DNA of 64,000 nucleotides from a plasmid. Position 1 is the stretch's first letter; every line of letters begins with the position of its first letter. A program made the position numbers. Positions 39,001-42,000 of the stretch are shown here, piece by piece. Location: sequence record NZ_CP014527.1; one strand, given 5' to 3'.

Positions 39001-42000
39001 GATACAGCCCGGGAGGTTTCGCCGGAATCAGCGATTGCTGGTGTATGCGACAGGACGGCAGGCTGTCCTGGCATACGACACAACAAAACATGCTCGTGCA
39101 GGGCATCAGCCAGCACACTGCCCTCAGGGACAGCATCCAACACAGCAAAGCCGGCAGACAAGGCCGCAGCTCGCCAGCGTTCCACAGATGCAAAGACATT
39201 ACCATCCCGGCTGTCGATATCATCCAGATTGGGAACAAGGGGACCAAAAACAAAGTCAAATAGCTTACGGTGCTGTGTGATTTCACGCATAATCACCACA
39301 CCACCGGGGCGCAGGCAACCTGCCAGACGCTTCATCAAGGCATCCAAGTCCGACGCGTTGTGCAGCACATTAGCAGCAATGACAAGATCAAGGCTCTGTG
39401 CCGGAATGCCTTGGGCGTGCGGGTCCTTCTCCATATCAAAGGGGCGGTAGTCCATGAAGGGAAAAGCCGCAAACGTCGTACGTGCACGTGACAAGAACAA
39501 AGAACCAAGATCCGTGAAGATATAGCGCTCTACACGGTCAGTTGGCAGGGCATGGACAACATCCCACGTTGTTCCCCCTGTCCCGGCTCCTATTTCCAGA
39601 ATAGACAAGGGGGTAGTACGCTTGACAGCCAGCGCTGCAACGGCCTTGGCCACAATTGCGTTTAACAGACGGGATTGGGCGCTGTGCCGATACATGGCGG
39701 CCACATCATCCGATGACCCATCGGGGAAAATGACCGAAACAGGATCAACCCGCCCGGACAACATATCTGCAAAAGCCGTCCCACCCCGCTTGATCACAGC
39801 CGCAAGTCGTTCATCACCTCTCTGCCGCAGGGCATCAAGAGCGGGAATGGTCTGATCCGGAGACAATGGTGTAAAGCCCGTATAAATCTTGCCTTCCTTG
39901 CGCAGCACGCCAATAGCAGCAAGATCACGCAGCAAACGTGCAACAAGTTGCCGGAACTTTGGCTTGATGGCTGTTGTCCGCAAAATATCGGCAACAGTAC
40001 GCTGTTGATCAGGACTTTCAAAGCAACCCAGTGCTTTCAGGGCCTGCCCTACATACACAGCATGCAGCACTTCGGCGTAGTGCTCATCTTGCTGCAATGT
40101 GGTAACATCAAGGTCGGCCCGAATGGCCTCTGCACGCGCAGCAGACAAAGCAGCAGACCACCCCGTACCATCCTCATCATGGACTGACAATGTGGCAAGA
40201 GGAGGCTCGGGCGACCAGAATAGCTGCTCTTGCAAGGCCCGTGGCGTTAACCAGACCTTTCCTTTCCCTTCTCCTGTTATAGCTGCCGGAGGAACGCCCA
40301 AGCCCGCCTGGAAAGCCATGCCAAGGGCTGCTCCCACACTCAGGTTGGCCGGCACATCCGGCAGACAGGACTCAAGCCATAGATTCTTGTCTGTTACCCG
40401 GCTTTCCACAATACCAACACTGACGATGGCACGCACTCCCGCCCCAGAGGACAGATCAGGAAGACGCAGGGGAACCTGCATGTTTGCAAGCAACGTCTCC
40501 TGCATACGGTCTGCGTTGGCACTGACCAAAGCCTCACCGACAATCAGCTGGAAAGGTATAACCTCCGGTAACACGTGAATGGATGGCAAGGCACTATCCA
40601 GTGATGTCGCCTGCTGTCTGGCCCACAAGGCGGCCAAAGACAGTGCCTCCTCGTGCGACAGGACGCCCGCGACAGCCGCAGCAGCCAGAGCCGATGGGCC
40701 ACATGCCACAATCTGGTCCGGCTTGAGCCCTGCCCCCAACCAGACTTCCGCCAAAGCAATATGCACAGCAATACCGGTTGCTAGAAGAGTGGCGGCGTCA
40801 GCCTGACCTGCTACAGATAGCAGGTTAAGCCCAGCATGTCCTGCAGAGATCAGGCTTGCCAGACGATCAAACGCCCGGCGGAATGTGGCATTGCTCTCAT
40901 AGAGGGAACGGCCATGGGACAGACATTGGGCAGGATCTCCCGCAAACAGGAGTATGACCTGCGCGATTGATTCTGGCTGTTGGTGAAGCAGGGTTATTCC
41001 GGGTACCGAATCTACTGCGGCAATGCGATCCAGATTCTCCGCCAGTCCTATGATATCTGGTGCCGACAGGGAAAGACGCCAAGGAAGAACAGGCCTTGCT
41101 GCCGCAGTGCGCAGCAGGGCTGGCAACCGGTTTTCCTGAAGATCGGACAAATCATCCGCCCAACGCGCCGCTGTGTGCCGCAAGGCATCGGCGCCAGTTG
41201 CCGACAGCACAAGAACAGGCACCCCTGTCGGACAAGGCCCCACGGAAGGCTCGGCAACCGGTTCTGGCGCCTCCTCCAGCACGATATGGCAGTTGGTCCC
41301 CCCGATCCCGAAAGAACTGACACCAGCACGCCGTGGGCAATCCCCCTGCTTCTCCCAAGGAGAAAGCGTGATGGGAACATGGAAAGGCGAAGCCGAAAAA
41401 TCGATATGGGGATTGGGTGCCTCATAGCCAGGCACAGGGGGAATTTGTCGATAATGCAAGGCCATGACGGCCTTCAGCAGCGAAGCTATTCCGGCTGCGG
41501 TATCGCAATGACCAAGGTTGGCCTTGACAGAACCAAGAGCACAAAAACCCCTTGCGTCCGTATCAGCACGGAACGCTGTCGTAAGGGCCTCAACCTCGAT
41601 CGGGTCACCCAAGGGTGTGGCCGTACCGTGTCCTTCCAGCAGGGTAATGCTGCCCGCATCCACCTCGGCCATGCCAAGGGCCTCGCGGATGACAGCAACC
41701 TGACCATCCACCGATGGCGCCGTATACCCTGTTTTTGCTGCGCCATCATTGTTGACGGCTGACCCCCGTATCACGGCCAGCACCGGATCTCCGTCAGCCA
41801 CCGCATCGTCCAGAAGCTTGAGCAAGACCACACCGGCACCATTGCCAATACTTGTTCCTTGGGCATTGGCGTCATAAGGCCGACACCGACCATCCGACGA
41901 GAAGATCATCCCCTCGTGGAACAGGTAGCCACTTTCCTGAGGGAAGGTCAGCGCCACCCCTCCGGCCAGAGCCATGGCACACTCGCCATTGCGGATCTGT

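What the first reader, a model, noticed from the sequence alone, without database searches (positions are those of the whole stretch)
40125..40982. Acyltransferase domain of the second PKS is degenerate (GHSxG -> ACGPS; GQGSQ -> GDPAQ)
Aligned to the intact AT in the upstream megasynthase (IIGHSVGEFQAAVIAGILPLQQA), the PKS AT reads IVACGPSALAAAAVAGVLSHEEA. The catalytic Ser is replaced by Gly and the HAFH/YASH motif is absent. This module must be malonylated in trans, by the neighbouring AT or a discrete AT elsewhere. That is an unusual cis/trans-AT mixed arrangement for a yersiniabactin-type line, where HMWP1 AT is active. Codons for ACGPS are at about 40692-40706.
Basis: seen in the sequence. 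Interest (0 to 1): 0.65.

Follow-up and report, generated by a model that had tools for sequence, protein, structure and literature searches.

The report
Dead acyltransferase relic in siderophore PKS
One module of a yersiniabactin/micacocidin-like siderophore assembly line in Haematospirillum jordaniae carries a shrunken, catalytically dead acyltransferase domain kept only as scaffold, so its carrier protein must be loaded by another enzyme; relatives show this is one stage of a loss that other bacteria have completed.

Summary
The gene lies on the minus strand (36960..42614, 1884 aa, KS-AT°-cMT-KR-ACP) and is 100% identical to a Haematospirillum jordaniae protein. In the AT region all four catalytic determinants are gone: GQGSQ->GDPAQ, nucleophile Ser->Gly639 (ACGPS, nt 40692-40706), carboxylate-binding Arg->Trp664. 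About 94 residues, including the HAFH histidine, are deleted. Only the N-terminal third still matches AT profiles.

It is not a sequencing error. The same lesions occur in orthologs at 93%, 67% and 45% identity. dN/dS of the relic (0.19-0.30) is like that of structural linkers and well below 1.

The 64-kb window holds no discrete AT. The only intact AT is the malonyl-type AT in the preceding FAAL-ACP-KS-AT-ACP module.

The arrangement is not unusual for this family. Micacocidin-type (MicG-like) PKSs have lost the AT completely. Every AT-degenerate or AT-deleted relative whose upstream gene could be read has a PKS module upstream. Classical yersiniabactin lines, which have no second AT, keep theirs.

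The likeliest mechanism is trans-malonylation by the upstream in-line AT; FabD is the main rival. This step is inferred, not shown. Verdict: real, and a new variant of a known kind, of modest interest.

The parts
36960..42614 (-). PKS gene, 1884 aa: KS - AT relic - C-methyltransferase - KR - ACP
   Evidence: ORF, translation, Pfam. It is 100% identical to 'type I polyketide synthase [Haematospirillum jordaniae]'.
41427..42548 (-). KS domain (aa 23-396) with intact Cys (TACSSS), His (HGTAT) and His (NLGH)
   Evidence: Pfam PF00109/PF02801; motifs; dN/dS 0.065 against P0002.
40965..41417 (-). KS-AT linker (aa 400-550)
   Evidence: PF16197; AF2 pLDDT mostly above 80; aligns to the same linker in intact-AT relatives.
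40215..40964 (-). Vestigial AT domain (aa 551-800), about 94 aa shorter than an intact AT. Only the N-terminal third is recognisable by sequence.
   Evidence: Pfam profile 3-119 of 319, 33.8 bits. Custom HMM positions 2-134 of 333. MSA. AF2 model plus Foldseek hits to DEBS/CurL KS-AT, TMq about 0.6. dN/dS 0.19-0.30.
40926..40940 (-). GDPAQ (aa 559-563) in place of GQGSQ; the oxyanion-hole Gln is Asp
40692..40706 (-). ACGPS (aa 637-641) in place of GHSxG; the nucleophile Ser is Gly639 and the preceding His is Cys
40611..40631 (-). ALWARQQ (aa 662-668); the carboxylate-binding Arg (E. coli FabD Arg117 equivalent) is Trp664
   Evidence: MSA. The residue role comes from established FabD/AT knowledge.
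39075..40067 (-). C-methyltransferase region (aa 850-1180) with the LEIGAGTGG SAM motif
   Evidence: Pfam PF08242 and others; dN/dS 0.057; alignment A2.
37518..38048 (-). KR domain (aa 1523-1699)
   Evidence: PF08659, 115.7 bits.
37038..37232 (-). ACP (aa 1795-1859, LGLDSL, Ser1824): the carrier that must be malonylated in trans
   Evidence: PF00550; motif.
42611..53911 (-). Upstream hybrid megasynthase, 3766 aa: FAAL-ACP-KS-AT-ACP-Cy-A(MT)-PCP-Cy-PCP
   Evidence: Translation; Pfam.
49322..50284 (-). The only intact AT in the window (aa 1210-1530). It has FSGQSTQ, GHSVGE (Ser1299), VERGRLM and HAFH, i.e. a malonyl-type signature. It is the candidate trans-loader.
   Evidence: PF00698 201.6 bits over profile 2-318; custom HMM 474 bits, full length; motifs.
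53929..59133 (-). Terminal NRPS, 1734 aa: Cy-A-MT-PCP-TE
   Evidence: Pfam.
35815..36963 (-). Irp3-like thiazolinyl imine reductase
   Evidence: PF21390 and PF01408.
34115..35818 (-). Methyltransferase-thioesterase fusion protein
   Evidence: Pfam. The same gene is present in related clusters.
30864..33985 (-). AraC-type regulator (33005..33985) and TonB-dependent receptor (30864..32888)
   Evidence: Pfam.
59277..62929 (-). Two fused ABC permease-ATPase genes (YbtP/Q-like)
   Evidence: Pfam.

Best explanation
The region is a vestigial acyltransferase domain (AT°). It sits in the KS-AT°-cMT-KR-ACP module of a thiazoline siderophore assembly line of Haematospirillum jordaniae, a line related to yersiniabactin and micacocidin.

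Shown: the relic has lost every catalytic determinant (Gln, Ser, Arg, His) and about 94 residues. It keeps the KS-AT linker, part of the AT core and the post-AT linker, it still models as an AT-like fold, and it evolves under purifying selection comparable to structural linkers.

Inferred: it now serves only as a spacer or scaffold holding the KS and the downstream cMT-KR-ACP in register. The module still extends the chain by one gem-dimethylated, reduced malonate unit, as in yersiniabactin and micacocidin. Its ACP is malonylated in trans, most probably by the intact malonyl-type AT of the preceding FAAL-ACP-KS-AT-ACP module on the neighbouring megasynthase. That second AT made the module's own AT redundant and allowed it to decay.
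For: - Dead AT: motif substitutions and deletion, and truncated profile matches.
- AT-like fold retained: AF2 pLDDT 74.5, pTM 0.74; Foldseek top hits are DEBS/CurL KS-AT didomains, E 3e-14, TMq about 0.6.
- Selection: dN/dS against P0002 is 0.19 (N-terminal part) and 0.30 (C-terminal part), compared with KS 0.065, MT 0.057, KS-AT linker 0.25 and the inter-domain region 0.26.
- Conserved length: the relic region is 406-414 aa in orthologs down to 45% identity.
- Rest of the module intact.
- No other AT in all six frames of the 64 kb.
- Upstream AT full-length with GHSVGE, HAFH, Arg and Gln.
- Comparative pattern: every AT-degenerate or AT-deleted relative whose upstream gene could be read has a PKS-NRPS hybrid upstream. 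An AT was seen directly in WIN, L006, L012, L002, L008, L009, L010 and L032. For L013-L017 a collinear MicC-like gene runs off the locus.
- Control: eight classical yersiniabactin-type loci with a purely NRPS HMWP2-like upstream gene all keep a full AT.
- An NJ tree puts the degenerate clade next to the intact-AT relatives P0004/6/7/8 and apart from the AT-deleted clade. This suggests two independent losses, both in lines with a second AT.
Against: - No experiment or computation here shows which enzyme loads the ACP.
- Three relatives (P0004, P0006, P0008) keep both ATs, so a second AT permits loss but does not force it.
- The comparative pattern rests on at most two independent loss events and one classical clade, so it is not statistically strong.
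- The tree is a simple NJ tree without support values.
- FabD is documented as a trans-AT for AT-less NRPS-PKS modules elsewhere (PMC13096860).
- dN/dS comes from a single close pair using a hand-written Nei-Gojobori estimate.
- The C-terminal part of the AF2 model has only moderate confidence (pLDDT 60-80).
Confidence: 0.55

Rival explanations
1. The ACP is malonylated by the housekeeping malonyl-CoA:ACP transacylase FabD of fatty-acid synthesis, encoded elsewhere in the genome. The upstream AT serves only its own module.
For: No discrete AT lies in the window. FabD has been reported as the trans-AT for the AT-less PKS part of the barnesin NRPS-PKS, and that paper cites the same for the Pseudomonas pseudotetraivprolide/detoxin pathways and for type II PKSs (PMC13096860). 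FabD also complements AT-null modular PKSs in vitro (own knowledge, not checked here).
Against: If FabD sufficed, AT loss should also appear in classical yersiniabactin lines. None of the eight such loci examined had lost the AT, whereas both losses occurred where a second in-line AT exists. This argument is weakened by phylogenetic non-independence. The two routes are also not mutually exclusive.
Confidence: 0.3
2. The module is non-extending or skipped: the AT decayed because the module no longer adds a malonate unit, and the product lacks the dimethyl-hydroxy-acyl unit.
For: Dead domains often mark inactive modules. The product of this cluster is unknown.
Against: The KS retains the Cys/His/His triad typical of elongating KSs. 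The cMT, KR and ACP motifs are intact. KS and MT have the lowest dN/dS in the protein, 0.06. The AT-deleted MicG-type PKS belongs to lines whose products (micacocidin, massiliachelin) do contain the gem-dimethyl hydroxy acid unit (PMC6604713).
Confidence: 0.05
3. The relic has acquired a new role, for example as a docking platform for the trans-acting AT or for the separately encoded Cy-A-MT-PCP-TE protein, rather than being a passive spacer.
For: Purifying selection and conserved length persist across orthologs down to 45% identity. MicG-type enzymes manage with only 165-243 aa between KS and MT, so about 410 aa is more than the minimum. In this lineage the downstream Cy is on a separate protein.
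Against: Sequence identity in the relic falls to 24-27% at 45% overall identity, as in plain linkers. No conserved surface motif was identified. The idea is purely speculative.
Confidence: 0.1

Closest known systems
Micacocidin / massiliachelin (agrochelin) assembly lines: MicC-MicG-MicH of Ralstonia solanacearum and the Massilia and Stappia homologs
   Same: The starter is made by a FAAL-ACP-KS-AT... module fused to Cy-A(MT*)-PCP-Cy-PCP. It is followed by a KS-...-cMT-KR-ACP PKS without a working AT. The clusters share an Irp3-like reductase, an MT-TE protein, an AraC regulator, a TonB receptor and two ABC exporters (PMC6604713, PMC10291242, PMC12997852). KS+MT identity is about 45-58%.
   Different: MicG-type PKSs have the AT excised outright (165-243 aa from KS end to MT, no PF00698 hit). 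Here a ~240-aa AT relic persists (406 aa). The first PKS module here lacks the KR present in MicC-type proteins. The condensation/cyclisation domain fused to MicG is here on the separate 1734-aa NRPS. In the tree the window protein groups with intact-AT relatives, not with MicG.
Yersiniabactin HMWP1 (Irp1) PKS module, KS-AT-cMT-KR-ACP
   Same: Same domain order and same accessory genes. The KR shares the unusual His in the position of the catalytic Tyr.
   Different: HMWP1-type proteins keep a full AT, shown here for P0101/P0114/P0120 and for L018, L022, L024-L026, L028 and L029. They are the only AT in a line primed by salicylate, and they are fused to Cy-MT-PCP-TE.
Irumamycin PKS module 12 with inactive AT12
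   Same: It is a cis-AT line with one dead in-line AT. The authors propose that the ACP is loaded by the AT of the neighbouring module (PMC11672594).
   Different: It is an actinomycete macrolide PKS in which both modules are on one polypeptide. That proposal also rests on modelling only.
AT-less (trans-AT) PKS modules served by discrete ATs or by FabD (e.g. barnesin BrnF)
   Same: The ACP must be loaded in trans, and post-KS linker remnants are retained (PMC13096860, PMC6164871).
   Different: No discrete AT gene is in the cluster. The relic here is far larger than the short flanking subdomain of trans-AT KSs. The line contains a cis-AT module.

Membership tests
Catalytically competent PKS/FAS acyltransferase (FabD-like, Pfam PF00698) | Nucleophile Ser in the GHSxG elbow | tested here: not met
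   ACGPS; the Ser position is Gly639. It is also Gly in P0002, P0003, P0005 and P0131.
Catalytically competent PKS/FAS acyltransferase (FabD-like, Pfam PF00698) | Catalytic His of the HAFH/YASH motif about 100 residues after the Ser | tested here: not met
   The region is deleted. The HMM match stops at position 134 of 333, and the MSA shows a gap over the small subdomain and HAFH.
Catalytically competent PKS/FAS acyltransferase (FabD-like, Pfam PF00698) | Carboxylate-binding Arg (FabD Arg117) and the GQGSQ Gln | tested here: not met
   Arg is replaced by Trp664 and Gln by Asp560 (GDPAQ).
Catalytically competent PKS/FAS acyltransferase (FabD-like, Pfam PF00698) | AT fold: alpha/beta-hydrolase-like large subdomain plus ferredoxin-like small subdomain | tested here: inconclusive
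   The AF2 model matches KS-AT didomain structures (Foldseek E 3e-14, TMq about 0.6). However, the domain is about 94 aa short, and the part where the small subdomain should be has only moderate pLDDT.
Catalytically competent PKS/FAS acyltransferase (FabD-like, Pfam PF00698) | Malonyl transfer to ACP | not testable with these tools
   Needs an in vitro assay.
Yersiniabactin HMWP1-type PKS module | KS-AT-cMT-KR-ACP with an active AT, fused to Cy-MT-PCP-TE | tested here: not met
   The domain order is the same, but the AT is dead and the protein ends after the ACP. The Cy-A-MT-PCP-TE is a separate 1734-aa protein.
Yersiniabactin HMWP1-type PKS module | Salicylate-primed line (salicylate synthase, salicyl-AMP ligase, NRPS-only HMWP2) | tested here: not met
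   The starter module is FAAL-ACP-KS-AT-ACP. No chorismate-binding or CM_2 gene was found among the cluster ORFs scanned. Contrast L011.
Yersiniabactin HMWP1-type PKS module | Accessory genes: Irp3-like reductase, YbtP/Q-like ABC pair, AraC regulator, TonB receptor | tested here: met
Micacocidin-type (MicC/MicG/MicH) assembly line | FAAL-ACP-KS-AT-KR-ACP starter PKS fused to the NRPS | tested here: not met
   FAAL-ACP-KS-AT-ACP is present but the KR is absent (gap against a MicC-like protein).
Micacocidin-type (MicC/MicG/MicH) assembly line | Second PKS of KS-cMT-KR-ACP type without a functional AT | tested here: met
   It is functionally AT-less, but through decay rather than excision.
Micacocidin-type (MicC/MicG/MicH) assembly line | Phylogenetic placement within the MicG clade | tested here: not met
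   The NJ tree of KS+MT groups it with the intact-AT relatives P0004/6/7/8, separate from the MicG-type clade (no support values).
trans-AT PKS system | Discrete AT gene encoded in the cluster | tested here: not met
   An AT HMM search of all six frames of the window finds only the hybrid's AT and the relic.

The most novel reading that the evidence does not exclude
The AT of the FAAL-primed first PKS module is a shared AT. It malonylates both its own ACP and the ACP of the next PKS on a different polypeptide, with the dead AT kept as scaffold or docking surface. The intact, degenerate and excised states seen among relatives would then record how a cis-AT module becomes AT-less through AT sharing inside one assembly line. 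In addition, the KR-less starter module implies an undescribed micacocidin-like siderophore in an emerging human pathogen.
Probability: 0.4. Interest if true: 0.55.

Novelty: new variant of a known kind. Interest (0 to 1): 0.35.

Why it matters
The finding gives a natural three-state series in one orthologous module:
- intact AT (P0004, P0006, P0008),
- decayed AT (Haematospirillum, P0005),
- excised AT (MicG type).

This series is useful for understanding how AT-less modules arise, and for engineering. It marks which parts of the KS-AT-linker architecture can be removed and which are kept.

If the upstream in-line AT really serves two carrier proteins, that would be a simple natural precedent for AT sharing in cis-AT lines.

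The cluster is also the only recognisable thiazoline-siderophore locus in this window of H. jordaniae, a blood-borne opportunist, and its product is unknown.

None of this overturns current understanding. Dead domains and trans-loading are familiar in PKS biology.

Tried and rejected
- Sequencing error or frameshift: rejected. The ORF is continuous. The protein is seen on 8 contigs. Identical motifs occur in two other Haematospirillum genomes, and equivalent lesions occur in more distant orthologs.
- Alignment shift that would place a Ser at the elbow: rejected. BLASTP, phmmer against PDB and the MAFFT MSA all give the same register. Ser641 is two residues after the nucleophile position, at the site of the final Gly of GHSxG.
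- Discrete AT in the cluster: searched with a custom AT HMM in six frames and none found. The right edge, 62930-64000, has no long ORF.
- Library-wide HMMER search with the relic: apart from the self-hit, all but one of the 150 listed matches cover only the first ~120-200 residues (the best stretches end between query positions 123 and 197). The exception is a fragment, P0131, related to P0005. So no family of 'relic-type' domains emerged.
- Literature: the primary micacocidin papers (Kreutzer 2011, PMC3165373; Kage 2013) are not held. I could not find a published statement on how MicG is loaded. Searches for 'micacocidin + AT domain', 'MicG' and 'lacks an AT domain' were uninformative. No paper on Haematospirillum secondary metabolism was found.
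- dN/dS against P0003 and P0005: dS is saturated, so only the P0002 pair is interpretable.
- P0003 upstream context: the contig ends at the gene start.
- The genome-collection census reaches only about 8 kb into the upstream gene. For L013-L017 the upstream AT itself is therefore inferred from collinearity, not seen.
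Full report
**What is there**

The finding lies inside a 1884-aa ORF on the minus strand (36960..42614). Pfam gives KS (aa 23-396), KS-AT linker, a weak partial Acyl_transf_1 match, C-methyltransferase, KR and ACP. The protein is 100% identical to 'type I polyketide synthase [Haematospirillum jordaniae]'.

Immediately upstream on the same strand is a 3766-aa hybrid, FAAL-ACP-KS-AT-ACP-Cy-A(MT)-PCP-Cy-PCP (42611..53911). Before that is a 1734-aa Cy-A-MT-PCP-TE protein.

Downstream lie an Irp3-like thiazolinyl imine reductase, an MT-TE fusion, an AraC regulator and a TonB-dependent receptor. 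Two ABC exporter genes sit at the other end. This is a yersiniabactin/micacocidin-like thiazoline siderophore cluster.

**Checking the observation**

ACGPS is aa 637-641 (nt 40692-40706) and GDPAQ is aa 559-563 (nt 40926-40940), exactly as stated. Three methods put ACGPS on the GHSxG elbow, with Gly639 at the serine position:
- BLASTP against the upstream AT,
- phmmer against PDB chains such as CurL, E 2e-6,
- a MAFFT alignment with eleven relatives.

The Arg that binds the malonyl carboxylate is Trp664. The distance from the GQ motif to the post-AT linker is 239 aa, against 333 aa in the upstream AT. The missing ~94 aa cover the small subdomain and the HAFH histidine.

Profile matches agree. 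Pfam covers only profile positions 3-119 of 319, at 33.8 bits against a cut-off of 32.7. My own AT HMM covers positions 2-134 of 333 at 58.7 bits, while the upstream AT scores 474 bits over the full length. In a HMMER scan of 1.84 billion representatives, apart from the self-hit all but one of the 150 listed hits align only to the first ~120-200 residues of the query.

An AF2 model of aa 445-870 has pLDDT 74.5 and pTM 0.74. It still finds DEBS, CurL and ClbI KS-AT didomains as its best structural matches (Foldseek E 3e-14, TMq about 0.6). The region is therefore a genuine but truncated AT homolog.

**Not an artefact**

Haematospirillum sp. 15-248 (P0002, 93% identity) and sp. H4485 (L012) have identical ACGPS and GDPAQ. 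A 67% ortholog has ANGSS, a 45% ortholog GSGHG and a fragment GDGYG, always with Gly at the serine position. The KS-end-to-MT distance is 406-414 aa in all four full-length proteins.

A Nei-Gojobori comparison with P0002 gives dN/dS of 0.19 and 0.30 for the two halves of the relic. KS is 0.065, MT 0.057, the KS-AT linker 0.25 and the inter-domain region before the KR 0.26. The relic therefore evolves like a structural linker, not like neutral DNA.

**The rest of the module is intact**

The KS has its Cys/His/His, the cMT has its SAM motif, the KR is present and the ACP has its serine. The module should therefore still extend the chain and needs malonyl-ACP.

A six-frame AT-HMM scan of the whole window finds only the relic and the upstream AT. 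The upstream AT has FSGQSTQ, GHSVGE, the Arg and HAFH, i.e. a malonyl-type signature by established motif rules.

**Comparative evidence**

Homologs fall into three states:
- Intact AT, 488-516 aa from KS end to MT: P0004, P0006, P0007, P0008 and the classical HMWP1-like proteins P0101, P0114, P0120.
- Degenerate AT, 406-414 aa: the Haematospirillum group and P0005.
- AT excised, 165-243 aa, no PF00698: the MicG type of Ralstonia, Undibacterium, Burkholderia gladioli, Stappia, Rhodopseudomonas, Methylorubrum, Sorangium, Pantoea and Rhizobium.

Gene contexts were examined next. A genome-collection scan was then analysed with my AT HMM and BLAST.

Every degenerate or excised case whose upstream gene could be read has a PKS-NRPS hybrid upstream. 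The AT was seen directly in eight cases. In five more (L013-L017) it is inferred, because a collinear MicC-like gene runs off the fetched DNA.

Eight classical yersiniabactin-type loci have a complete, NRPS-only, ~2000-aa HMWP2-like protein upstream and no other AT. All eight retain a full AT.

Three loci (P0004, P0006, P0008) retain both ATs.

An NJ tree of KS+MT places the degenerate clade beside the intact-AT relatives and apart from the excised clade. This suggests two independent losses, both where a second in-line AT exists. The tree has no support values and the number of independent events is small, so this is suggestive only.

**Mechanism**

Shown: the AT is dead and shrunken, conserved as scaffold, inside an otherwise functional module. 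There is one intact malonyl-type AT next door and no discrete AT in the window.

Inferred: the ACP is loaded in trans. I favour the upstream in-line AT (about 0.5) because of the comparative pattern.

FabD is the main rival (about 0.3). It has published precedent for AT-less NRPS-PKS modules (PMC13096860). The two routes may coexist.

A neighbour-AT loading model has been proposed, again only from modelling, for the inactive AT12 of the irumamycin PKS (PMC11672594).

A skipped module is unlikely, given the strong constraint on KS and MT. In addition, micacocidin and massiliachelin, made by lines with AT-excised MicG-type PKSs, contain the corresponding gem-dimethyl hydroxy-acid unit (PMC6604713).

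**Comparison and novelty**

The closer relatives are the FAAL-PKS-primed micacocidin/massiliachelin lines, in which a PKS without an AT is the norm. The 'mixed cis/trans' arrangement is therefore not unusual for this family.

What is new is modest:
- a decayed but retained AT, representing an intermediate and probably independent route to the same end state;
- its occurrence in a sub-lineage whose starter module lacks the KR;
- its occurrence in an uncharacterised cluster of an emerging human pathogen, for which no literature on secondary metabolism was found.

I rate it a new variant of a known kind, with interest about 0.35.

Noticed in passing
window 42611-53911 (-), aa ~1530-1740 of the hybrid: The first PKS module is FAAL-ACP-KS-AT-ACP with no KR, and the P0005 relative is also KR-less. 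MicC-type proteins have a KR there, which is needed for 6-alkylsalicylate formation. The starter unit, and hence the siderophore, probably differs from micacocidin.
   Followed up: partly
window 37518-38048 (-), KR motif GPAGQAAHAMAN: In all 17 HMWP1/MicG-like PKSs where the regex matched, and by eye in the Pseudomonas HMWP1-like proteins (GQGAHALAS), a His sits where SDR-type KRs have the catalytic Tyr (GQxxYAAAN). This is a family-wide oddity whose consequence I did not examine.
   Followed up: partly
window 53929-59133 (-): The terminal NRPS (Cy-A-MT-PCP-TE) is encoded upstream of the starter megasynthase, so gene order is not colinear with the presumed assembly order. The same order is seen in the P0005 contig L002.
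   Followed up: no
window 20943-25606 (+): A second iron-uptake operon lies about 5 kb from the cluster: TonB-dependent receptor, periplasmic binding protein, FecCD permease and ABC ATPase.
   Followed up: no
P0008 (locus L005 10001-17413): The 'intact' AT of this relative reads GQGRAAP and QAFHS instead of GQGSQ and HAFHS while keeping GHSLGE and the Arg. This is possibly an early stage of the same decay.
   Followed up: no
window 10001-14000 and 62001-64000: GC content drops to 0.39-0.46 there, against 0.55-0.585 across the biosynthetic genes. The right edge beyond the ABC genes has no long ORF. The HutD-UvrB-glutaminase flank is syntenic in the 67%-identity relative L001.
   Followed up: partly
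window 18795-20111 (+): A 438-aa ORF combines a trypsin-like protease domain with RTX calcium-binding repeats, next to an outer-membrane efflux protein that has a SPOR domain (16733-18496).
   Followed up: no
window 42611-53911 (-), aa 2849-2949: A methyltransferase-like insert lies inside the first A domain of the hybrid. The massiliachelin paper labels the equivalent insert a 'methyltransferase-like epimerization domain' (PMC6604713).
   Followed up: no
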